Shown: positions 4,530-39,848 of the stretch, in pieces
How the letters are laid out: the number at the start of each line of letters is the position of its first letter
Numbering within the stretch: position 1 is the first letter of the stretch
Virus record (IMG/VR): IMGVR_UViG_2703718834_000012
Length of the DNA: 42,682 nt
Source: a virus
Taxonomy: Duplodnaviria; Heunggongvirae; Uroviricota; Caudoviricetes
Reading direction: 5' to 3' (one strand)
Translations under genes and position numbers: made by a program
Notes under the pieces: generated by a model
Told to the model about the DNA's origin: nothing
What the model saw: only the letters and a program-made list of their open reading frames with translations
The model's database searches: none

Positions 4530-4967
4530 TTAACGTTGCTCCCATATCCAGTAAAACCTGAATTCCTGCCAGTCCTTCCCCGGTGCCTGATAGCGGATAA
4601 TGAGATTGAGCCGGTCAGGCAGGACGATCCTTGCAACAGGAATAACCTCGCTGACAACGCCATCAACCTTTAACCAGTTGAGCGCTTCACTCGAGTATTC
4701 CTCCGCTTTTTTTGCTACATCCGGGGTCAGTTTTTTCCGCCGTAGCAGCCACAGCCGGGATCCCAGTTGGGATTCCTCCCCGGAATCCCCCCACCAGCCG
4801 CGGCGATCGCTATCCTCATAATCATCGTCAGCGCGCGCCAGCCTGTCGGTAAACAGGCTGTCCAGTATTGCAGTCTGTAAATCGTTCCCCGTGGTGAGTT
4901 CACCCAGCCCTTTCTGCCAGTCAGCAAACATCTCATCCACATTCCAGAATGAAGCGATGTCACTCAT
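4530..4967 (-). CDS. Baseplate protein (Mu gp46 / gpW-gp25-like)
   Basis: 145 aa; synteny within Mu-like baseplate block; start overlaps upstream gene. Confidence 0.6.
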   Translation of the reverse strand: MSDIASFWNVDEMFADWQKGLGELTTGNDLQTAILDSLFTDRLARADDDYEDSDRRGWWGDSGEESQLGSRLWLLRRKKLTPDVAKKAEEYSSEALNWLKVDGVVSEVIPVARIVLPDRLNLIIRYQAPGKDWQEFRFYWIWEQR

Positions 4968-5548
4968 GTCACCTGATCCTCTGTTTTTTGGCTGCGGATA
5001 TTGTCATTGCCACTCTGGGCATTTTTAACCACATGATCATGGTCATTATGTGCATCCCGCAGCTCTTTCAGTGTTCGGGTATTGGTTTCACAGTTATCAA
5101 CAATGTCACCCGTGCACCTCAGGATCGGGGTATTTGCAAGGATCCCCTGGCTGGCATTGATGGTCACGTTAGTGGCGTTATTGACCTCAACATTCTGGCC
5201 CTTTGCATCCAGGAAGATCCCCTTCTCCGTCAGGAGAATATTAAGGCCCCACTGGTTATACATGACCGTTTCGCCCGCTTTCAGGCCTGTATGACGGAAC
5301 CCCTGATGGTTGGACGCAATTACCACCGCGCTGGAACGATCACCGCCAATAAAAGCCAGAACCACGTCAGTCCCTGACGGCAGGCCGGATGAAAAGCCAA
5401 ATTCTGCCATCCGCGGAGCGCTGGCCACCTCCAGCGGAGTCTGGTACTGGATAGACTGCACCACCCCACCATCTTTCATAGCCGTGATCCGGCCAATCCC
5501 CAGCATGCCGGCGATCCTGGTCGCTGCATGTTTAAATAGTTGCTTCAT
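4964..5548 (-). CDS. Baseplate assembly/spike protein (Mu gp45-like)
   Basis: 194 aa; synteny; overlapping start/stop with neighbours. Confidence 0.6.
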   Translation of the reverse strand: MKQLFKHAATRIAGMLGIGRITAMKDGGVVQSIQYQTPLEVASAPRMAEFGFSSGLPSGTDVVLAFIGGDRSSAVVIASNHQGFRHTGLKAGETVMYNQWGLNILLTEKGIFLDAKGQNVEVNNATNVTINASQGILANTPILRCTGDIVDNCETNTRTLKELRDAHNDHDHVVKNAQSGNDNIRSQKTEDQVT

Positions 5549-6630
5549 GTATTGAATCCCGCCAGGTTCTGGTAGAAGGCATATGGCTGAACGGAGAATG
5601 CTTCAGGCGGCATCAGCGTCATGCGTGCATGGGTGCCGTAGTCATCGCGCATATAGGTGACTTCTGCCAGTAGCAATTCAGTCTTCGGCAACCGTAAGGT
5701 GGGAAGATCAACGGGGATCAATGTGTTTGGTTCCCACAGTTTCCCGTCTTTATCCCGCCAGGAATCGATGGTTACCGAGAGCTGTTTTGAACGTCCGTAC
5801 CGCCGGTTCATTTCCCAGTCGATCGCACTTTGTGCCTGTTGAGTAGCCATCAGGGTACTTTCCACAATCGATATATGTTTTCGGTACCGCATGCGGGCGG
5901 CCTCCGGATCTCTCGCCGTTGCCAGAGTCACAGCGTCATAGGCCGTATCAGGCGAATACCCTGCAATTGGAGAAACGCTCATTGATACACCGACATAATC
6001 TGAAAACCTGTCAGCCATCGATTTGCGGTAGTATGCCTGCTCGACATTTACCCCTTCGGCTATCCCACTTGCCGCACGACGTGTTCCCACCCGGGTCAGT
6101 AACAGGTTTCCATCGGGCTGATCGTAGTAAAGCAGAGCAGACCATCTGGCCACCCGATCGATGACTTCTTGCGGAGACTCACCCCAGTTCAGAGTGAACT
6201 GGGGTACCTTCACAAGTTCATCAACATCCGTGGTTACGGTGATGCCGTAGTAGGATGCCAGGCGAGAAGCAATTTCAAGCGCATTACTGGCATTGATGAC
6301 GTTGTTAGGCCACTCGGCTGAGCAATCCACCAGGTCCTGACATTTGCTCCTGCCCGTGGCGCGGACCTCATGGCGGGAGCGCGATAGTGCGGGTTCCCAG
6401 TCATCAACATATCCCGTCAGTGTCAGATCATCTCCGATACGAACTTCACAAGACATTCCCTCTTCAACGAGTTGACGATCTTCGTTGCCAGGGAAGTAAT
6501 CCATTAGCCCAAGATCGAAATCAGAGGGAAAACGCTCAATACCCCGCGTTACCCGGACAGAATCCCACCCCTCGATGATTTTGCCGTCGACCGTCAAAGA
6601 AACAACATCCAGATCGCTGTCTGCATTCAT
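5545..6630 (-). CDS. Tail/baseplate hub protein (Mu gp44 / P2 gpD-like)
   Basis: 361 aa; synteny downstream of DNA circulation protein. Confidence 0.6.
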   Translation of the reverse strand: MNADSDLDVVSLTVDGKIIEGWDSVRVTRGIERFPSDFDLGLMDYFPGNEDRQLVEEGMSCEVRIGDDLTLTGYVDDWEPALSRSRHEVRATGRSKCQDLVDCSAEWPNNVINASNALEIASRLASYYGITVTTDVDELVKVPQFTLNWGESPQEVIDRVARWSALLYYDQPDGNLLLTRVGTRRAASGIAEGVNVEQAYYRKSMADRFSDYVGVSMSVSPIAGYSPDTAYDAVTLATARDPEAARMRYRKHISIVESTLMATQQAQSAIDWEMNRRYGRSKQLSVTIDSWRDKDGKLWEPNTLIPVDLPTLRLPKTELLLAEVTYMRDDYGTHARMTLMPPEAFSVQPYAFYQNLAGFNT

Positions 6631-32804: not shown

Positions 32805-33344
32805 TCATATAGCCCCCAGCATAATCTGCACCATTTCCATCAACGGACCGGTTAACCCAGGGTCAACGCGATACATCTCCACGATCCCCTCGCTCAACTC
32901 TTTCAGCTTCTGATGACGTGGCGCATCCATTGCGACAGCAATCTTCGCTTCGCTGGTTTCCTTCTCCAGCCTTGCCAGACGAGCCATTACGTTGTCTTCT
33001 GGTAGCAGACGATTGCGGTATTCAATCGGCAGGACAGCGAGGATTGCCGGAGTCAGCTGGCGAACGTTTTCGCGGTACCGTTCGCTGTTGAAATGGTTAT
33101 CCAGAAAGCGGAAAAGCTTCTGACGCTGTCGGCTGAGGTCATCAGGGAAAGTGATCTCGTCTCCCCCTTGAGCCTGGTACTCTTCGATGATCAGAGCAGA
33201 AACGACATCCTGACCATCTACACCCGCCCACGCACGAACGGCATCGCGGATCTGGTCATGTTTATCTACCGAGACAGGTTGATTGCGATTTATCATCGCA
33301 GCCGTTTGATATCCGCTATTTTGATGAAGTGATAGTGACTGCAT
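32805..33344 (-). CDS. Regulatory protein in cII position (CII/YdaT-like, uncertain)
   Basis: 179 aa directly downstream of cro-like gene; assignment by position. Confidence 0.4.
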   Translation of the reverse strand: MQSLSLHQNSGYQTAAMINRNQPVSVDKHDQIRDAVRAWAGVDGQDVVSALIIEEYQAQGGDEITFPDDLSRQRQKLFRFLDNHFNSERYRENVRQLTPAILAVLPIEYRNRLLPEDNVMARLARLEKETSEAKIAVAMDAPRHQKLKELSEGIVEMYRVDPGLTGPLMEMVQIMLGAI

Positions 33345-33346
33345 GG

Positions 33347-33580
33347 TTATGCCCTCGCTTCCTGAGCCGGTAATCCATCCGTAGGGTTGAGGTACAAATC
33401 AGGGCGTAACTCATGTGGAGTTACACCTGTAGCATTGAAAATAGGAATGACACGGTTAGCCGGTACGAATCCATTGTCACGGTGACGCCAGTGACTGACC
33501 GTCATTGGGGATACATTGAGCTTTTCTGCTAAACGGGTTGCACCCCCTACGATGCATATTGCTTTATCAAGTGCTTTCAT
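33347..33580 (-). CDS. Cro-like HTH regulator
   Basis: Start MKALDKAICIVGGATRLAEKLNVSPMTVSHWRHR at ATG 33578-33580 with GGAG RBS; divergent from repressor. Confidence 0.7.
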   Translation of the reverse strand: MKALDKAICIVGGATRLAEKLNVSPMTVSHWRHRDNGFVPANRVIPIFNATGVTPHELRPDLYLNPTDGLPAQEARA

Positions 33581-33607
33581 ATTTGGCTCCAAGTAATAAC
33601 GAACCAA

Positions 33608-33653
33608 ATTAAACATTATGTTTATGTTCAAGTCAACATTATGAATGTTGAGG
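33608..33653. promoter_or_regulatory. Immunity-region operators with divergent pR/pRM-like promoters
   Basis: Palindromes TAAACATTATGTTTA (33610-33624) and AACATTATGAATGTT (33635-33649); minus-strand TTGACT-N17-TTTAAT and plus-strand TTGAGG-N16-TAGAAT overlap them. Confidence 0.55.
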
Positions 33654-33683
33654 CGATAAACTTTTAGTTTAGAATCTTGATAT

Positions 33684-34079
33684 ATGAGAAAAAACACACA
33701 CCAAACAGATAACCCGCAGGTTCGGCGGTTAAATGAAATCATCGAGAAGAAGCGCATATCCAAAGCGGATATAGCGAGAATCTGTGGTGTGAGCGCACAA
33801 TCAGTCAACAACTGGTTTGTCAGAGGAGCGATAGGAAAAAGCTCAGCAATAAAACTTGCCGATGCGCTAGGCGTAAGTCTTGAGTGGGTTCTAGGTCAGG
33901 ACGTGGATGCTAAGGACGGTTTGAGACACGACGAACGGAGACTGTTGGAACTCTATAATCAACTCCCAAACGAAGAAGAACAACAGAACATGTTGCGGAT
34001 CGTATCTCTACGGTTGAAAGAACTCGATGAACTGTACGCCAAGTACATGGGACGGCGGATTAAGGGGGATGGTGAGTAG
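33684..34079 (+). CDS. CI-like prophage repressor (short, HTH only)
   Basis: 131 aa; XRE-type HTH (ISKADIARICGVSAQSVNNWF); no LexA-like S24 autocleavage domain; apparently leaderless start. Confidence 0.8.
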   Translation: MRKNTHQTDNPQVRRLNEIIEKKRISKADIARICGVSAQSVNNWFVRGAIGKSSAIKLADALGVSLEWVLGQDVDAKDGLRHDERRLLELYNQLPNEEEQQNMLRIVSLRLKELDELYAKYMGRRIKGDGE

Positions 34080-34151
34080 CACGGTAGTTAAAAGCTACTT
34101 ACCCCTCAGATGTTTCTGTACCAATGGGATACATCTTAACGATATGCAAAA

Positions 34152-34180
34152 TTCACTTACCAGTTAATTATCATTATATT
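34152..34180 (+). promoter_or_regulatory. Candidate sigma70 promoter for immunity-region cassette
   Basis: TTCACT-N17-TATATT about 10 nt upstream of the cassette start. Confidence 0.35.
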
Positions 34181-34190
34181 GAGAGCTGAG

Positions 34191-34514
34191 ATGGGCGAAC
34201 AGGTTGAAGAAGAAAAAAGTCAGGAAAGTGTCAATACAACAGCATTGACGCTATCAATATCAAGACAAGAATTTCGAGATTATTTTCAACGCCTCGAAGA
34301 AAAACATGGCGAGATGGCCTGTCCGCTTTGTAAGCATACGCTTTGGGGAGTTCCTCCACGAGAAGATAGTCAAGACTATCCTGCAATAATTACCCTTCCT
34401 CTACCTCATTCAGCTGGCCGAGGTATATGGGCATTCCCTGTTATATGTGTAGAATGTGGTTTCATTGCCACATTTGCTGCTAACCGAGTATCACTAAAGG
34501 TTCGAGAGGGATAA
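34191..34514 (+). CDS. Hypothetical zinc-ribbon protein (cassette gene 1)
   Basis: 107 aa from ATG 34191 (track start at 34179 is TTG); CPLCKH...CVECG Cys pairs; AT-rich. Confidence 0.55.
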   Translation: MGEQVEEEKSQESVNTTALTLSISRQEFRDYFQRLEEKHGEMACPLCKHTLWGVPPREDSQDYPAIITLPLPHSAGRGIWAFPVICVECGFIATFAANRVSLKVREG

Positions 34515-34516
34515 CA

Positions 34517-34900
34517 GTGGCTGCAGTTTGCTTAGATCATCAATCAAGCTCAATTATTTCGATTGATCGGGTTGAAGTATTTGAGACCTTCCCAAAAATC
34601 GAAAATCATGTTGGCGATATTCCTTACACACTTGATGAATCCAGGATATTGTTGCTAAGGAACAGTGTTTCACATCCTGATAGCTGTGTTGGGCTGAAAG
34701 CATTTTCTGTCGCGCTAATAGTGATGCTAGGTGTTATAGTGTGGTTAACAGGAGGTAAGGTTATGTACTATATCCCTCTTTACGCAGCACTCATACCAGT
34801 AGCTTATTGGTTAGTTAAGATTGGATTTGCGTATTATGTAGTCAAAACACAAAAGTTACATGTTGACTCGAAATCGTTCTCGGGAAAAAATCATGGCTAA
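34517..34900 (+). CDS. Hypothetical membrane protein (cassette gene 2)
   Basis: 127 aa, GTG start with GAGAGGG RBS 2 nt after upstream stop; two predicted TM helices. Confidence 0.55.
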   Translation: MAAVCLDHQSSSIISIDRVEVFETFPKIENHVGDIPYTLDESRILLLRNSVSHPDSCVGLKAFSVALIVMLGVIVWLTGGKVMYYIPLYAALIPVAYWLVKIGFAYYVVKTQKLHVDSKSFSGKNHG

Positions 34901-35318
34901 CGATAACGTTAAAAATGTAGCTAAAAATGGACTACCTTTTCTAATTGTCTCCCTCATATGTGGTTATGCTACAGATGCTATTCCTATCTTCTTTCCTGAC
35001 GGTGAGTTTCGTGATTGGGCCTACAGATCTGTTCCTTTTCTGTCTTTGATTCTTCTTTTTGTAATCAAAACGTTAAAGGATTTTGGTGGAATGTCATTTA
35101 CAGGTCTGTTATTTACAATATGCTCAAGCCGAGAAAAGAAAAGGCTAAAGATCATTATGGATGACAATCACGCTAGTGATGCGACCATGCAAGCAGCAAA
35201 AAAACGTTATGACGAAATATTACAAAAAGAACTCGAGTTAAGCTCAAGGTTGCTGACCTACATTTCTCAGTGGTCGATCTTTAAGAAAGCACCGACCCCC
35301 CCATCATCTGTTGAATAA
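34893..35318 (+). CDS. Hypothetical membrane protein (cassette gene 3)
   Basis: Start MANDNVKN overlapping upstream stop by 8 nt; 2-3 hydrophobic helices then charged helical tail. Confidence 0.55.
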   Translation: MANDNVKNVAKNGLPFLIVSLICGYATDAIPIFFPDGEFRDWAYRSVPFLSLILLFVIKTLKDFGGMSFTGLLFTICSSREKKRLKIIMDDNHASDATMQAAKKRYDEILQKELELSSRLLTYISQWSIFKKAPTPPSSVE

Positions 35319-35324
35319 AGCAAT

Positions 35325-35351
35325 AACCCAGTTACCGAACTGGGTTTTTTA
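35325..35351 (+). terminator. Rho-independent terminator
   Basis: Perfect 8-bp stem ACCCAGTT/AACTGGGT, loop ACCG, then TTTTTTA. Confidence 0.7.
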
Positions 35352-35555
35352 TTGCCCTTTTCTCACCATAGCAGCCGCATCCCGCAATACCCACTTGTGA
35401 ATGACGTTTCCCACTACCCTGCGCTTAGCCTCTAGACTATCCACAATCGCATCGCGGCTGATCACAATCCCGTTAGCTATCAGACTGACAACTGCGCCAC
35501 CAATCTCCCCCGCAATAAACGCTGCGCGGTCTTCTTCCAGTTCGTCACGATCCAT
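35349..35555 (-). CDS. Hypothetical protein, divergent from pL operon
   Basis: 68 aa with GAGGGTGA RBS; non-repetitive sequence. Confidence 0.45.
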   Translation of the reverse strand: MDRDELEEDRAAFIAGEIGGAVVSLIANGIVISRDAIVDSLEAKRRVVGNVIHKWVLRDAAAMVRKGQ

Positions 35556-35667
35556 AACTCACCCTCATCGATTTTTTTATAACCACAAAATAGACCACAA
35601 AACATACTACTCGTGCCAACGAGCGCAACCAACTAAACTTTTTGTTTATATAAAAACACTCATTATG

Positions 35668-35696
35668 TTGACACGTAAATAAACATTGTGTTTAAT
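35668..35696 (+). promoter_or_regulatory. pL-like promoter with overlapping operator (OL)
   Basis: TTGACA-N17-TTTAAT; palindrome TAAACATTGTGTTTA (35680-35694) matches the OR1-type site 14/15. Confidence 0.55.
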
Positions 35697-35939
35697 TACT
35701 CCATCAACACAACCACCAAAGCAGGACGCCCACGAAGAAGCTGTCCGGGGCATACGAAGACCGGAATGAGGTGGTGAGATTAACGCGCAGTAGGTTTGAA
35801 ACGTTCCGCCAGCCTGGCGACAAGGGCAAAGCACAGAGTGAGCTTCGCGGTGGTGAATTGCAGAGTTAAAACGCTCAACCGTGAAGATCAGCGCCGCGGC
35901 ATCACCAGCGAAGTTCACTCAGAAAAACTGGAGAACATC

Positions 35940-36146
35940 ATGGTTCATCAGCACTACGGTACACAGACAGTAAACCGCGGCGCAGTTCAGCCGGGGATGC
36001 TCGTCAAACACAAAGACTCAACCTGGACGGCATCAGCTAACGCTCGCGGACGTTTGTATCTGCATCGCGGCGTAGAAATGACTTACACCAAGGATTTGCT
36101 GGTTGAAGTTTATCTGAACGGTCTGGGGCATGGACTCAGCCACTAG
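35940..36146 (+). CDS. Hypothetical protein, first pL-operon gene
   Basis: 68 aa from ATG 35940 with GGAG RBS; track ORF 35796 begins with TTG. Confidence 0.45.
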   Translation: MVHQHYGTQTVNRGAVQPGMLVKHKDSTWTASANARGRLYLHRGVEMTYTKDLLVEVYLNGLGHGLSH

Positions 36147-36157
36147 CGGAGGATGTC

Positions 36158-36319
36158 ATGTTAGACAAGAAATGCGGATATTGCGGCAAGCCGGTTAAAA
36201 CGGAGGAAGTAATCAAGAGCACCCTTCTCTATCGCAACGGCTCACAGCTGGCGCGCAAAGAAAAAGAGTATTGCTCCAAACGTTGCGCTTCGCACGACCA
36301 GATGGCTCACGAAGGCTAA
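36158..36319 (+). CDS. Small zinc-ribbon protein (53 aa, below ORF-track cutoff)
   Basis: GGAGG RBS 5 nt upstream; MLDKKCGYCGKP...YCSKRCASHDQMAHEG with two Cys pairs. Confidence 0.4.
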   Translation: MLDKKCGYCGKPVKTEEVIKSTLLYRNGSQLARKEKEYCSKRCASHDQMAHEG

Positions 36320-36458: not shown

Positions 36459-39400
36459 ATGGAATTCTTTAATGTGGTTAAAGCCACTCAGAAATCCGGA
36501 AAGCAAGATGCAGTGGTCTGGTTCACTGCTAAAACCGAGGCTCGCGCCAATCTGATGCTGGATGTTGCGCTGGAAGATGCAGGTATCGAAACAGGTCGGG
36601 GTAAGGACTACGCCAAACCGATTCGCACTGATTTCCCAGTTGTCGACGGCCTGCCGAAAGAAGGTGAAGTTGATTTTACCTGGTGTGATCGCTACGAGCT
36701 TCAGGACGATGGGCGCACCTGGCTGCCAAAAGCCGCTGGTGTGTCTACTGGTTCCGTTTACGCCCCCTACACACCTACTCCGACCGTAATCGTTGAAGAT
36801 GCGACTGCGTCCGAAATTGTCCCGGTTGAAAACCGTACTCCAGCGGTCCGCTTTGCCGTCCATCTGATGAACGATAAATACCAAACCCACGTCACTAAAG
36901 AGCAGCAGTTGGCTGCCAGCGAAATGTCACTGGATGAAGGCAATACATATCTCCATAGCCTGCTTGTGGCAAGGAACGATGTGCCCGCGACCGCCAAACT
37001 CAGCCTGAATGCTGAGTGGAAAATGATTCGGGCGGTTAAGGACATTTTCACACCAGACGAAGAGCACGAACCAAGATTGATCGCTGCATTCATGTCTGAC
37101 TGGGTGAACACCGATGCCGGTGACCGCAATCAACTGGTAGAAGACTGGCGCAGTGGTAAGTTGCAGTTGCTCAAAACTGAAACCAGCAACGCTGCTGACG
37201 TTACAACGGGTCAAGATCTCACTGTTGAGGACGGTATCCAGACCGACGAGAACGGCCGGGCAGAAGGTGGCGTCGTTGATGGTGAAGTCGATACCGAAGA
37301 GCAATCCCAGCAGACACAGCAACCGAACCTGATCGTTGTTGCCACCCTGCCATTCCGCCAGCGCGTACTGGCTCAGTTCATCGGTGATGGTGAATATCTC
37401 TATCACATCGACGCAGGGCAGAAAAATGAGATTGTCCGCCTTGAGATGGACACCGATGACGCGTACGTCCAGAACCTGCTGCTGGCAGCTGAGAATGTGG
37501 AAGCATTCAAAAAAGCCATTGAGCACGATATTCATAAAGTCGTGAATGCCGTTAAGAAAGTCTTCCCTGTCGATGGAAAAATCCCTGAACTCGCAACCTT
37601 AATCCAGTTTTTGAAATTGTGGTTCGCTACAGATCACATCGACCGCGGTATCCTCGTTCGCGAATGGGCCGCCGGTAATCGCATCAGTAGTGTGCAGCGT
37701 ACTGATTCCGGCACTAATGCCGACGGCGGTTACGTCACTGACCGTGGACCTGACGCACACCACACACTGGACACTCTCGATTTAGAGATTGCGTGTGCCC
37801 TTCTGCCTATGGACTTCAACCACTTCGAGATCCCGGGCAGCATTCTTCGTCGCGCTAAAGAAATCGTGACCAAAAAAGAAGAACCATGGAAATCATGGAG
37901 CAACATCCTGCGCAATCAGCCAGGCGTTCTGGGTGTTAACCGCACGGCTATTTTTAACCTGGTACGTATCGCACCGGAAAATATTCATTTAACTCCTGTC
38001 GCTCACCTGGAATTTGTTAACCAGACCATGACAGCCGCGTTCAATTCCGCGGTCGAGTTATTGCCGTTGCATGAGGCTGAACCCGCAGCACAGGAAATTC
38101 CCCAACCTGAAGGTAAGGAGTCTCCGCGCAAATCCTTCTGCACTCACGAAGAGAACCTGCAACGCGTGCGTGAAGAAGGAGCACGCCGCCGCGCAGAGGA
38201 AGCGGCAGCACAACCGCAGAAAGTCGAACAAGAACTGGTTAAAAATGTCGGCAACGGAATATTCGACGTTACGGCTTTGCTGCAGAACTCAGCAACTCAT
38301 GGCACGAAAAAGGCTACGGAGACCACCAGCAATGTGCAGGTTCAAGAAACTGTCAGTGATGAAAAACAAGCTGGTGATGAAGTACAGCCAGGCGAAAGCA
38401 GTCTGGAGTCTGGTGAAGAGTCAGATACCAGCCAGAAGGACGATGTAAACCAGAATACGGATTCTGTCGCCAAAAATAGCGATTCTGTAAGCCAAACCGA
38501 ACCAGTTGCAGCACAAACCGAGCCAGAAGCGCAATCTGACGAACCAGCTGTTGTTTATCCCGCTTATTTCGAGCCAGGCCGCTATGAAGGGCTGCCAAAC
38601 GAGGTTTACCACGCCGCCAACGGCATCAGCTCAACCCAGGTGAAAGATGCGCGCGTTTCGCTGATGTACTTCAATGCGCGCCACGTAGAGAAAACCATCG
38701 TCAAAGAGCGCTCAGCGGTGCTGGACATGGGCAACTTGGTGCATGCGCTGGCGTTGCAGCCTGAACTACTGGACGCAGAATTCAGCGTTGAACCGGTGAT
38801 CCCTGAAGGCGCATTCACAACGGCCGCGACCCTGCGCGCCTTTATCGATGAGCACAATGCCAGCCTGCCGGCGCTGCTGTCTGCCGACGACATCAAGGTG
38901 TTACTGGAAGAGTACAACGCCACCCTGCCGCCGCAGGTTCCGCTTGGCGCTAACCTGGAAGAAACGGCACAGAACTATATGGCGCTGCCAGCTGACTTCC
39001 AGCGTATTGATGGTGACCAGAAGCAGACGGCGACGGCAATGAAGGCATGCATTAAAGAGTACAACGCCACCCTGCCGCCGCCGGTTAAAACCAGCGGCAG
39101 CCGTGACGCGCTGCTGGAGCAGTTGGCAATCATCAACCCTGACCTTGTGGCTCAGGAAGCACAGAAACCGGCACCACTGAAAGTGTCCGGTACCAAAGCA
39201 GACATGATCCAGGCCGTAAAGGCAGTCAAACCAGATGCCGTATTTGCCGACGAACTGCTGGATGCCTGGCGCGATAACCCGGAAGGAAAAGTGCTGGTCA
39301 CCCGCCAGCAGCTGAGCACCGCGCTGAATATTCAAAAAGCGCTTCTGGCACACCCGACCGCCGGCATGCTGCTGACCCACCCTAGCCGAGCCGTTGAGGT

Positions 39401-39848
39401 GAGCTACTTTGGTTTTGACGAGGAGACGGGCTTGGAAGTTCGTGTGCGCCCTGACCTTGAGATCGACCTGGATGGCGTGCGTATAGGTGCAGACCTGAAA
39501 ACCATCAGCATGTGGAATGTTAAGCAGGAAAGCCTGCGCGCCAGGCTACACCGGGAAATTATTGAACGTGATTATCACCTGAGCGCGGCTATGTACTGCG
39601 AAACCGCAGCGCTGGATCAGTTCTTCTGGATTTTCGTCAACAAAGACGAGAACTACCACTGGATCGCCATCATCGAGGCATCCGCTGAACTACTGGAGCT
39701 GGGTATGCTCGAGTACCGCAAAGCGATGCGCAATATCGCAACCGGATTCGACACAGGTGAATGGCCAGCGCCAATCACTGCTGACTACACCGACGAACTG
39801 AACGACTTCGACCTGCGCCGCCTTGAAGCGCTGCGTACTCAGGCATAA
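36459..39848 (+). CDS. recE: Exonuclease VIII, RecE-like
   Basis: 1129 aa; N-terminal segments (TDFPVVDGLPKEGEVDFTWCDRYEL, GNRISSVQRTDSGTNADGG) parallel Rac RecE; C-terminal PD-(D/E)xK-like core. Confidence 0.85.
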   Translation: MEFFNVVKATQKSGKQDAVVWFTAKTEARANLMLDVALEDAGIETGRGKDYAKPIRTDFPVVDGLPKEGEVDFTWCDRYELQDDGRTWLPKAAGVSTGSVYAPYTPTPTVIVEDATASEIVPVENRTPAVRFAVHLMNDKYQTHVTKEQQLAASEMSLDEGNTYLHSLLVARNDVPATAKLSLNAEWKMIRAVKDIFTPDEEHEPRLIAAFMSDWVNTDAGDRNQLVEDWRSGKLQLLKTETSNAADVTTGQDLTVEDGIQTDENGRAEGGVVDGEVDTEEQSQQTQQPNLIVVATLPFRQRVLAQFIGDGEYLYHIDAGQKNEIVRLEMDTDDAYVQNLLLAAENVEAFKKAIEHDIHKVVNAVKKVFPVDGKIPELATLIQFLKLWFATDHIDRGILVREWAAGNRISSVQRTDSGTNADGGYVTDRGPDAHHTLDTLDLEIACALLPMDFNHFEIPGSILRRAKEIVTKKEEPWKSWSNILRNQPGVLGVNRTAIFNLVRIAPENIHLTPVAHLEFVNQTMTAAFNSAVELLPLHEAEPAAQEIPQPEGKESPRKSFCTHEENLQRVREEGARRRAEEAAAQPQKVEQELVKNVGNGIFDVTALLQNSATHGTKKATETTSNVQVQETVSDEKQAGDEVQPGESSLESGEESDTSQKDDVNQNTDSVAKNSDSVSQTEPVAAQTEPEAQSDEPAVVYPAYFEPGRYEGLPNEVYHAANGISSTQVKDARVSLMYFNARHVEKTIVKERSAVLDMGNLVHALALQPELLDAEFSVEPVIPEGAFTTAATLRAFIDEHNASLPALLSADDIKVLLEEYNATLPPQVPLGANLEETAQNYMALPADFQRIDGDQKQTATAMKACIKEYNATLPPPVKTSGSRDALLEQLAIINPDLVAQEAQKPAPLKVSGTKADMIQAVKAVKPDAVFADELLDAWRDNPEGKVLVTRQQLSTALNIQKALLAHPTAGMLLTHPSRAVEVSYFGFDEETGLEVRVRPDLEIDLDGVRIGADLKTISMWNVKQESLRARLHREIIERDYHLSAAMYCETAALDQFFWIFVNKDENYHWIAIIEASAELLELGMLEYRKAMRNIATGFDTGEWPAPITADYTDELNDFDLRRLEALRTQA

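What the first reader, a model, noticed from the sequence alone, without database searches (positions are those of the whole stretch)
34152..35351. Three-gene zinc-ribbon plus membrane-protein operon beside cI (rexAB position): candidate lysogen-expressed exclusion or abortive-infection system
Directly downstream of the repressor and co-oriented with it are three tightly coupled genes: a 107-aa protein with two Cys pairs, and two small membrane proteins with 2-3 TM helices each. The block is markedly AT-rich, has a promoter-like TTCACT-N17-TATATT of its own, and ends in a strong terminator. In lambda this slot holds rexA/rexB, but these proteins are smaller and do not resemble Rex, so this may be an undescribed module.
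Basis: inference. Interest (0 to 1): 0.75.

Follow-up and report, generated by a model that had tools for sequence, protein, structure and literature searches.

The report
Uncharacterised three-gene cargo cassette behind prophage repressor
Right after the repressor gene of a Rac-like E. coli prophage sits a rare, conserved cassette of one zinc-ribbon protein and two small membrane proteins with no known relatives; its position and its behaviour as swappable cargo make it a good but untested candidate for a new prophage-encoded phage-exclusion system.

Summary
Three tightly coupled genes follow the repressor gene: A 34191-34514 (107 aa, four invariant Cys), B 34517-34900 (127 aa, 2 TM) and C 34893-35318 (141 aa, 2-3 TM). 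The block is AT-rich (39.6% GC against 51.1%) and ends in a strong hairpin terminator.

All three genes are under purifying selection. They occurred together and in the same order in every homologous locus I fetched, directly 3' of either a short RacR/DicA-like or a cI/S24-type repressor.

Read-through from the repressor promoter is more likely.

The slot is a cargo hotspot. One repressor allele, found in 12 of 5426 E. coli genomes, is followed by at least four different cassettes.

A belongs to a wider family of about 100-aa proteins, which heads three cassette types behind cI:
- two membrane proteins;
- one single-pass coiled-coil protein carrying the same [IVL]EN[HQR]xG motif as B;
- two soluble proteins.

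Pfam, NCBIfam, PADLOC, PDB sequence searches and fold searches found no known family.

My best reading is a lysogen-expressed, Rex-like exclusion or abortive-infection module with a cytoplasmic adaptor and a membrane effector. The function is inferred, not shown.

The parts
33610..33675 (+). OR-like operator cluster, plus a PRM-like promoter candidate (TTGAGG-N16-TAGAAT, 33648-33675) that ends 8 nt before the repressor ATG
   Evidence: The operator-like motif clusters here and at 35634-35694: 19 matches against 10.1 expected, reached by 0 of 100 shuffles. Its function as a promoter is inferred by analogy with lambda PRM.
33684..34079 (+). Prophage repressor: a 131-aa HTH protein of the RacR/DicA type, with no S24 peptidase domain
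   Evidence: Pfam HTH_3 (3e-8) and Phage_CI_repr (1.6e-5). phrog_8 transcriptional regulator. Weak DicA match in NCBIfam. Divergent from YdaS- and YdaT-like genes.
34080..34190 (+). Cassette-specific leader.
   Evidence: No + strand terminator was found. The fold is not significant, z = -1.4. Homology with sister prophages that carry other cargo stops at the repressor stop codon. Only about 25 nt before the ATG of A is conserved across contexts.
34191..34514 (+). Gene A: 107-aa acidic (pI 5.3) cytoplasmic zinc-ribbon protein, C44/C47/C86/C89
   Evidence: AF2 pLDDT 71.7, with two N-terminal helices and a beta-sheet. Four invariant Cys. Family of 46 representative clusters. phrog_4293 at E = 3.7e-7.
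34517..34900 (+). Gene B: 127-aa inner-membrane protein. About 57 N-terminal residues carry the invariant PKIENHVGDIPY motif, followed by a TM hairpin with the invariant GGKVMYYIPLY turn and a Lys-rich tail.
   Evidence: In about 980,000 six-frame residues of the fetched loci, the motif occurs only in the gene after A. hhalign aligns the motif to the type II partner at P = 0.0015.
34893..35318 (+). Gene C: 141-aa membrane protein with 2 clear TM segments and a short third hydrophobic segment, a conserved loop PxGEFRDWAYR, and a basic helical C-terminal domain of about 65 aa
   Evidence: It overlaps B by 8 nt. All 15 loci found with the C profile also carry A and B.
35325..35351 (.). Bidirectional intrinsic terminator: a 9-bp stem with a 4-nt loop and T-runs on both sides. 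It closes the cassette.
   Evidence: z = -4.7. Each alternative cassette in this slot brings its own hairpin, and the flank homology resumes at the T-run.
35634..35696 (+). OL-like operators and a PL-like promoter (TTGACA 35668-35673, N17, TTTAAT 35691-35696). This is the right border of the immunity region and not part of the cassette.
   Evidence: and the sequence. Function is inferred.

Best explanation
The block is a self-contained accessory (moron) cassette. It consists of a leader with a ribosome-binding site, genes A, B and C, and a terminator. It sits in the hypervariable cargo slot between the repressor gene and OL/PL of a Rac-like lambdoid prophage.

Expression. It is most likely transcribed in the lysogen by read-through from the repressor's PRM-like promoter, and the three genes are translationally coupled.

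Proposed mechanism (inferred):
- A is a cytoplasmic zinc-ribbon adaptor or sensor. It docks on the conserved [IVL]EN[HQR]xG motif in the cytoplasmic N-terminal tail of B.
- B (2 TM) and C (2-3 TM) form a small inner-membrane complex. Its most conserved stretches are the turn between B's two TM helices and the TM1-TM2 loop of C; under the N-in topology I infer from charge distribution, both face the periplasm.
- On superinfection the complex either blocks genome entry or is switched by A into a membrane-damaging state. This would be Rex-like exclusion or abortive infection.

Shown: the gene structure, purifying selection, strict A-B-C co-occurrence, mobility among unrelated repressors, the cargo-hotspot nature of the slot, and the absence of known homologues.

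Inferred: lysogenic co-transcription, A-B binding, the topology, and the anti-phage function.
For: Cassette behaviour. A, B and C occur together and in the same order in every locus fetched. They lie directly 3' of RacR/DicA-type repressors (window, L005, L014, L016, PHB10, L040) and of cI-S24 repressors (L004, L006, L007, L043-45).

Selection and coupling. Purifying selection is strong. Gene junctions are tight and conserved.

Expression. There is no terminator between the repressor and A, and a conserved terminator follows C.

Cargo slot. One repressor allele carries at least four different cargoes, and the breakpoints lie at the repressor stop codon and in the terminator. Two of the alternative cargoes are also a small soluble protein plus a membrane-anchored protein, and another contains the HicAB toxin-antitoxin pair.

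Literature. The cI-N interval is a known mosaic hotspot that holds the abortive-infection systems RexAB and BstA, both expressed with the repressor (PMC8585504). RexA is a soluble protein and RexB a 4-TM protein, and both are transcribed from PRM (PMC11077077).

Modularity. The A family heads three cassette types with different downstream partners. This one-constant, one-swappable arrangement is typical of defence systems.

Shared motif. B and the type II single-pass partners share the IEN motif at the same position.

Distribution. The cassette is rare and patchy: 5 of 5426 E. coli genomes, and none of 185,579 species-representative genomes.
Against: - There is no experimental or transcript evidence for expression or for any phenotype.
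- Nothing matched a defence model in PADLOC.
- 'Guilt by location' is weak evidence. Morons in this slot can have other roles.
- The A-B interaction rests on a short motif with a modest hhalign score (P = 0.0015, probability 16%). The motif regex was also defined after I had seen the data.
- The AF2 model of B is poor (pLDDT 55). C was not modelled, and no complex could be modelled.
- Type III cassettes have soluble partners, so the membrane is not essential to what A does.
- TM topology comes only from hydropathy and charge bias.
Confidence: 0.45

Rival explanations
1. Toxin-antitoxin-like addiction or stabilisation module. B and/or C are small membrane toxins. The acidic protein A, encoded first and translationally coupled to them, neutralises them. 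The selected function would be prophage retention rather than phage exclusion, although the two overlap mechanistically with abortive infection.
For: The gene order and charge pattern resemble type II toxin-antitoxin operons: A has pI 5.3, and B and C have pI 7.8 and 8.9. The genes are tightly coupled. A HicAB toxin-antitoxin pair occupies the same slot behind the same repressor in strain WEM25. Zinc-ribbon proteins such as MqsA appear among the weak fold matches.
Against: No toxin-antitoxin family matched in Pfam, NCBIfam or PADLOC. The fold matches are not significant. A shows no DNA-binding domain for autoregulation. Three components, including two membrane proteins, is not typical of toxin-antitoxin systems.
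Confidence: 0.15
2. Lysogenic-conversion cargo unrelated to phages. A small membrane complex would alter envelope physiology in the lysogen, for example stress or antimicrobial tolerance, transport or colonisation, with A as its cytoplasmic regulator.
For: Prophage morons expressed in lysogens often serve host fitness or virulence; this is general knowledge, and bstA itself was first linked to virulence phenotypes (PMC8585504). Conserved stretches in B's inter-helix turn and C's TM1-TM2 loop, periplasm-facing in my inferred topology, could bind a host envelope component. Sources are clinical, animal and water isolates of several Enterobacteriaceae.
Against: No similarity to any transporter, resistance or virulence family. 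The constant A protein also pairs with soluble partners in type III cassettes, which fits an intracellular sensing role better than an envelope function. The cassette is very rare in E. coli.
Confidence: 0.2
3. Modulator of the prophage's own lysis-lysogeny switch or induction, like the second role of RexA. A would act on the repressor, the Cro-like protein or the operators, and B and C would tether or antagonise it at the membrane.
For: A-family genes sit directly after the repressor gene in almost every locus. RexA biases the lambda switch and RexB antagonises it (PMC11077077). Zinc ribbons often bind nucleic acids, and the weak fold neighbours are TFIIS, NrdR and Rpb9 ribbons.
Against: The same cassette serves unrelated repressor families (short HTH and cI-S24) with unrelated operators. 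That argues against a specific partner in the switch. Sister prophages with the identical repressor lack it and carry other cargo. A Pseudomonas member is not next to a repressor gene.
Confidence: 0.1
4. Chance ORFs or decaying remnants with no function.
For: No family has any annotation. The region is AT-rich, which tends to produce long ORFs.
Against: The proteins are conserved at 34-76% identity across genera while synonymous sites are saturated, with dN/dS at most 0.22. Cys residues and motifs are invariant. Order and coupling are conserved.
Confidence: 0.02

Closest known systems
Lambda RexA/RexB exclusion system
   Same: Both occupy the same slot, directly 3' of the repressor gene, co-oriented with it, and before OL/PL. 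Both probably share the repressor's maintenance promoter. Both combine a soluble cytoplasmic component with a small polytopic inner-membrane component: RexB has 4 TM, and B plus C have 4-5 TM in total. Both are AT-rich cargo (PMC11077077).
   Different: No sequence similarity to RexA or RexB (no Pfam match at E <= 1). A is a 107-aa zinc ribbon, whereas RexA is a 31-kDa DNA-binding dimer. The membrane part is split into two proteins. There are three genes rather than two. No phenotype is known.
Mycobacteriophage Butters gp30/gp31 (and similar prophage defence pairs in cluster N phages)
   Same: A prophage-expressed pair of a cytoplasmic protein and a transmembrane protein that interact and defend against heterotypic phages (PMC7542560). 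This is the same logic I propose for A with B and C.
   Different: Unrelated sequences, and an actinobacterial host. I did not make a direct sequence comparison, and Pfam and PADLOC showed no shared family.
BstA of Salmonella prophage BTP1
   Same: [quoted passage not shown] It mediates abortive infection (PMC8585504).
   Different: BstA is a single large soluble protein that acts at sites of phage DNA replication. PADLOC (v2.0.0, 2023) gave no significant match for A, B or C.
phrog_4293 (phage proteins of unknown function)
   Same: A matches at E = 3.7e-7, and its Yersinia phage homologue at 6e-7. This is the only database family to which any of the three proteins belongs.
   Different: The family has no annotated function, so membership explains nothing about the mechanism.
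SieB (P22, lambda, Rac) and other small membrane superinfection-exclusion proteins
   Same: Small inner-membrane proteins, encoded in or near lambdoid immunity or early-left regions, that abort or exclude superinfecting phages (my own knowledge).
   Different: Neither B nor C matched the Pfam SieB family. SieB acts as a single protein with no zinc-ribbon partner.

Membership tests
Lambda RexAB | Located directly 3' of the repressor gene, co-oriented with it, between the repressor and OL/PL | tested here: met
   Repressor 33684-34079, A-B-C 34191-35318, OL/PL-like sites 35634-35696.
Lambda RexAB | A RexA homologue (soluble DNA-binding protein of about 279 aa) | tested here: not met
   Pfam scan at E <= 1 gave no RexA family match for A, B or C. 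There was no PDB sequence match, and RexA has a solved structure (PMC11077077).
Lambda RexAB | A RexB homologue (four-TM protein of about 144 aa) | tested here: not met
   No RexB family match. B has 2 TM and C has 2-3 TM.
Lambda RexAB | Co-transcribed with cI from PRM in the lysogen | not testable with these tools
   The sequence is consistent with it: no terminator between the repressor and A, and a terminator after C. No transcript data are available.
Lambda RexAB | Excludes T4 rII and other phages, with loss of membrane potential | not testable with these tools
   Needs plating and membrane-potential assays.
Known anti-phage defence systems (PADLOC-DB v2.0.0, 2023) | A significant match of any component to a defence-system model | tested here: not met
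   No family matched A, B or C at E <= 1. Partners from distant cassettes gave only one coiled-coil-level match, PDC-M14B at 6e-5.
Type II toxin-antitoxin systems (HicAB, MqsRA and others) | Homology of one component to a known toxin or antitoxin family | tested here: not met
   No match in Pfam, NCBIfam or PADLOC. MqsA appears only as a non-significant fold neighbour, E = 0.3.
SieB superinfection exclusion | Match to the Pfam SieB family | tested here: not met
   Not among the Pfam matches at E <= 1 for B or C.
phrog_4293 | A significant HMM match | tested here: met
   A matches at E = 3.7e-7 and Yersinia phage A' at E = 6e-7 over the full length. The family's function is unknown.
Zinc-ribbon fold (generic) | Two CxxC knuckles on beta-hairpins, with the Cys ligands invariant | tested here: met
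   C44/C47/C86/C89 are the only invariant columns in 38 homologues. AF2 places the second CxxC between two strands (78-86 and 92-96) and models the first in an unstructured segment. Weak fold neighbours are the TFIIS, Rpb9 and NrdR ribbons. Metal binding itself was not tested.

The most novel reading that the evidence does not exclude
The roughly 100-aa four-Cys protein A may define a previously unrecognised, modular family of prophage immunity-region systems. In this reading A is a constant zinc-ribbon sensor or adaptor encoded immediately after the repressor gene. It is coupled to interchangeable effectors of three kinds: a two-protein membrane complex (this window), a single-pass coiled-coil membrane protein that shares the [IVL]EN[HQR]xG docking motif, or a pair of soluble proteins. 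The whole would be a new class of lysogen-expressed anti-phage defence in Enterobacteriaceae, Yersinia and Pseudomonas phages.
Probability: 0.35. Interest if true: 0.7.

Novelty: new variant of a known kind. Interest (0 to 1): 0.55.

Why it matters
The cI-N (rex) slot of lambdoid prophages is a recognised store of lysogen-expressed defence genes, but few of its cargoes have been characterised. This cassette has a clean definition: exact boundaries, three selected genes and no known homologues. It is small enough (1.27 kb) to clone and test directly.

If it excludes phages, it would add a new protein family to the defence repertoire. Through the A family and its three effector types, it would also give a tractable case of one sensor or adaptor with swappable effectors.

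Natural isogenic controls exist, because sister prophages carry the same repressor with other cargo.

If it has no phage phenotype, it is still a conserved membrane module of unknown role, expressed from clinically relevant E. coli, Klebsiella and Enterobacter prophages.

Tried and rejected
Searches that found no informative match for A, B or C:
- Pfam, PADLOC, PHROGs and NCBIfam gave nothing apart from phrog_4293 for A.
- PDB sequence-profile searches found nothing.
- The AF2 model of B was too poor to search with (pLDDT 55).
- Two scans of one genome per species (185,579 species) found no relative.
- Megablast against 50,697 phage records found nothing. tblastn found only phage PHB10 and Yersinia phage vB_YenM_30.14.
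- Rfam found no RNA family in 33300-36200.
- Literature searches by protein accession found nothing. HepS (PMC13043305) is an unrelated HEPN protein.

Ideas I rejected:
- The longer ORF starts at 34179 and 34860.
- The resemblance of 'FPKIEE' in the second gene of the Yersinia phage type III cassette to B's motif. It is absent from the L029 and L030 orthologues, so it is probably chance.
- The match of the A profile to a 751-aa cystatin-repeat protein (P0051), which I treated as spurious.
- Homology between C and the type II partner (hhalign E = 0.35).
- The 68-aa reverse gene at 35349-35555 as a part of the cassette. It belongs to the conserved flank.
Full report
CONTEXT

The window is a lambdoid prophage of E. 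coli, and its right-hand third is organised like Rac. Reading leftwards on the minus strand are a YdaS/Cro-like gene (33347-33580), a YdaT-like gene (32805-33344) and the replication genes O and P. Reading rightwards on the plus strand are a 131-aa HTH repressor (33684-34079), the block in question, and then a YdaE-like gene, RecE (36459-39848), RecT and the integrase.

Operator-like sites with AACAT/ATGTT half-sites cluster in two places: between the Cro-like and repressor genes (33610-33671), and at 35634-35694. The second cluster overlaps a TTGACA-N17-TTTAAT site that points rightwards. There are 19 matches against 10.1 expected, a count reached by 0 of 100 shuffles (sequence).

The block therefore lies inside the immunity region, between the repressor gene and OL/PL. 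This is the position of rexA-rexB in lambda (PMC11077077).

THE OBSERVATION

The three genes exist as described, and NCBI's PGAP pipeline calls them identically in near-identical prophages.

| Gene | Coordinates | Product |
|---|---|---|
| A | 34191-34514 | 107 aa, pI 5.3, CPLC and CVEC |
| B | 34517-34900 | 127 aa, GTG start |
| C | 34893-35318 | 141 aa |

- Coupling: the A stop and the B start are 2 nt apart, and B and C overlap by 8 nt.
- Start codons: conserved N-termini of homologues support these starts rather than the longer ORFs.
- Membrane segments: hydropathy gives B one long hydrophobic span (55-109), which AlphaFold2 resolves into helices 58-77 and 82-112. C has spans at 14-35 and 43-67, plus a short third segment.
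- Composition: the block is 39.6% GC against 51.1% for the window.
- Terminator: the hairpin at 35325-35346 with flanking T-runs is strong, at -16.2 kcal/mol, z = -4.7, with 0 of 200 shuffles as stable.
- Coding status: against homologues of 48-76% identity, pN is 0.12-0.33 while pS is 0.59-0.84, so synonymous sites are saturated. dN/dS is at most 0.22 where it can be computed. These are real protein-coding genes.

The one element that does not hold up is the promoter at 34152-34180:
- It matches 9 of 12 consensus positions, and such sites are about as common in shuffled sequence (8 found, 5.3 +/- 1.8 expected).
- The region upstream of A is not conserved between contexts, apart from about 25 nt that carry the ribosome-binding site. 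In two contexts the whole spacer is only 49 and 83 nt.
- A transcript starting about 7 nt after its -10 element would exclude the GAGAG ribosome-binding site of A.
- There is no intrinsic terminator between the repressor and A, and the spacer does not fold significantly.

A PRM-like site, TTGAGG-N16-TAGAAT, ends 8 nt before the repressor ATG. Read-through from the repressor promoter, as for lambda cI-rexA-rexB, is the simplest reading. This is an inference, because no transcript data exist.

A MOBILE, SELF-CONTAINED CASSETTE

The three protein families are tiny. Among 5.8 billion clustered proteins, A has 6 clusters, B has 13 and C has 17. All come from Enterobacteriaceae: E. coli, Klebsiella, Kluyvera, Enterobacter and Cedecea.

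The DNA is present in 5 of 5426 complete E. coli genomes and in no phage record at the nucleotide level. Two scans of one genome per species (185,579 species) found nothing.

In every locus I fetched, A, B and C occur together, in that order, and tightly coupled. All 15 loci found with the C profile also carry A and B.

The cassette always follows a prophage repressor gene directly, but the repressors are of two unrelated designs:
- short RacR/DicA-like HTH proteins (window, L005, L014, L016, phage PHB10, L040);
- cI-type HTH plus S24 peptidase proteins (L004, L006, L007, and the Yersinia loci L043-45, where A, B and C are only 42%, 34% and 50% identical to the window's).

A hairpin terminator follows C in every case.

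THE SLOT IS A CARGO HOTSPOT

The window's own repressor allele, at 98% nucleotide identity or more, occurs in 12 of 5426 genomes. In the sister prophages the homology stops at the repressor's stop codon and resumes in the T-run of the terminator. The cargo in between differs:
- E. coli ES8: a 149-aa soluble protein plus a 136-aa coiled-coil protein with a C-terminal membrane anchor;
- WEM25: YoaK, HicA/HicB and a 141-aa protein;
- 2022CK-00450: a 101-aa protein plus a 217-aa coiled-coil/TM protein.

Each cargo is AT-rich and brings its own terminator hairpin.

This matches what the literature says about the cI-N interval. It is a hotspot of mosaic diversity that houses RexAB in lambda and the abortive-infection protein BstA in BTP1, and both are presumed to share the strong lysogenic repressor promoter (PMC8585504).

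WHAT THE PROTEINS ARE

Nothing known.
- Pfam, NCBIfam and PADLOC give no significant match for A, B or C.
- PDB sequence-profile searches give none.
- Only A matches a PHROG, phrog_4293, whose function is unknown (E = 3.7e-7).
- The model of B is poor outside the TM hairpin.

A WIDER FAMILY AROUND A

A full HMM search of 1.84 billion representative proteins found 46 clusters related to A (15 at E <= 1e-10). Nearly all are 85-117 aa long, and they include proteins from Yersinia and Pseudomonas. In an alignment of 38 of them, the only invariant columns are the four cysteines.

I recovered the genomic context for several of these homologues. Again the gene sits directly after a cI-type repressor, but its downstream partners differ.

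- Type I is A+B+C, as in the window.
- Type II (L020-L022, L024, L025) is A followed, with a 4-nt overlap, by one protein of 157-163 aa. That protein has an N-terminal soluble part, a single TM and a long coiled coil. A Pseudomonas member, L023, has the same pair but no adjacent repressor.
- Type III (Yersinia phage vB_YenM_30.14, L029, L030) is A followed by two overlapping soluble proteins, the second in phrog_5954, and then the N antiterminator.

Type I B proteins and type II partners share a short motif, [IVL]EN[HQR]xG[DESN]xx[YF], about 20-40 residues before the first TM:
- window B: PKIENHVGDIPY;
- Yersinia B: PVENQNGECLY;
- type II partners: KIENQDGSVMF, RLENRQGDIMY and RIENHDGNKIY.

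Profile-profile alignment picks out exactly this stretch (P = 0.0015). A regex for the motif hits only these genes in about 980,000 six-frame residues of all fetched loci. The regex was written after I had seen the data, so I treat this as suggestive rather than conclusive.

A motif kept in the protein encoded next to A, across partners that are otherwise unalignable, is what a docking site for A would look like.

MECHANISM PROPOSED

The shown and the inferred steps are kept apart here.

Shown:
- a selected, translationally coupled three-gene cassette with its own terminator;
- its mobility among immunity regions;
- the cargo-hotspot nature of the slot;
- a constant zinc-ribbon component with variable partners.

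Inferred:
1. The cassette is expressed in the lysogen with the repressor.
2. A is cytoplasmic. It has no signal sequence and has Zn-binding cysteines. It binds the IEN motif in B's N-terminal tail, which is cytoplasmic by the positive-inside rule, since B's C-terminal tail carries four Lys.
3. B and C form a 4-5-helix inner-membrane complex. The most conserved stretches are B's GGKVMYYIPLY turn and C's PxGEFRDWAYR loop, both predicted to face the periplasm.
4. On superinfection the complex either blocks genome entry or is switched by A into a membrane-damaging state.

This is Rex-like logic carried out with unrelated parts. The arrangement of one constant component with swappable partners, the rarity and patchiness of the cassette, its AT-richness and its location all fit an anti-phage role. 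None of them proves it. I put this reading at about 0.45.

RIVALS

- A toxin-antitoxin-like addiction module: an acidic A encoded first, basic membrane proteins after it, and HicAB in the same slot. I put it at about 0.15. It overlaps mechanistically with abortive infection.
- A lysogenic-conversion function unrelated to phages, at about 0.2.
- A RexA-like modulator of the prophage's own switch, at about 0.1. The use of unrelated repressor families, and sister prophages with the same repressor but other cargo, weaken this.
- Chance ORFs are excluded.

COMPARISON AND NOVELTY

The cassette works like RexAB in position and architecture. It is not a member of that family, because the RexA and RexB homology tests fail. 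The same holds for SieB, BstA, known toxin-antitoxin families and everything in PADLOC.

It is best described as a new variant of a known kind: an unrelated protein set filling the role of lysogen-expressed cargo in the cI-N slot. Accession-based and keyword literature searches found no description of it.

VERDICT

Interest is moderate to good. The cassette is cleanly delimited, conserved and completely unannotated, and it sits in a proven defence hotspot. The new finding is that its zinc-ribbon gene heads three different cassette types. Many such candidates exist, however, and the function here rests on inference alone.

Noticed in passing
window 35349-35555 (-): A 68-aa ORF (phrog_3975, E = 1e-34, function unknown) is convergent with gene C and shares the bidirectional terminator. 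It belongs to the conserved right flank and not to the cassette. The same gene follows a different cargo in E. coli ES8, and a different 64-aa reverse gene takes its place in WEM25 and 2022CK-00450. In L005 a DUF2767 protein sits at this position.
   Followed up: partly
window 33610-33675 and 35634-35696: Two clusters of operator-like sites with AACAT/ATGTT half-sites look like OR and OL triplets. A PRM-like promoter ends 8 nt before the repressor ATG, so the repressor mRNA would be nearly leaderless, as in lambda. A PL-like TTGACA-N17-TTTAAT site overlaps the right-hand cluster.
   Followed up: partly
L026 1714-2576; L027 4279-5668; L028 4274-5238 (E. coli ES8, WEM25, 2022CK-00450): Three alternative cargoes sit behind the same repressor allele. 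Two are pairs of a small soluble protein with a coiled-coil membrane-anchored protein, with no known family. One is YoaK + HicAB + a 141-aa unknown protein. All are AT-rich and each has its own terminator. They are further untested candidates from the same hotspot.
   Followed up: partly
L019 4980-5979 (Yersinia phage vB_YenM_30.14); L029 3483-4446; L030 3393-4356: This is the type III cassette, lying between cI and N. It consists of an A-family zinc-ribbon gene followed by two overlapping soluble proteins of 90-103 aa and 124-135 aa. The second is in phrog_5954 and has a conserved WHYHIG...HY motif. It has no Pfam, NCBIfam or PADLOC match.
   Followed up: partly
L001 (E. coli B18271, NZ_CP144710.1) 4877-5678: In two of the five E. 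coli genomes that carry the cassette, the prophage is truncated. The YdaS/Cro-like gene abuts a partial baseplate J gene, and RecE is frameshifted. The repressor and A-B-C are nevertheless 100% intact. This fits retention of the lysogen-expressed part of a decaying prophage.
   Followed up: no
L002 10422-11345 (E. coli TUM9803 prophage): A SIR2-family protein gene lies between the lysis genes and the small terminase subunit gene in a sister prophage that carries the cassette. It may be a second defence-type moron. I did not check whether it is present in the window.
   Followed up: no
[not shown]
   Followed up: no
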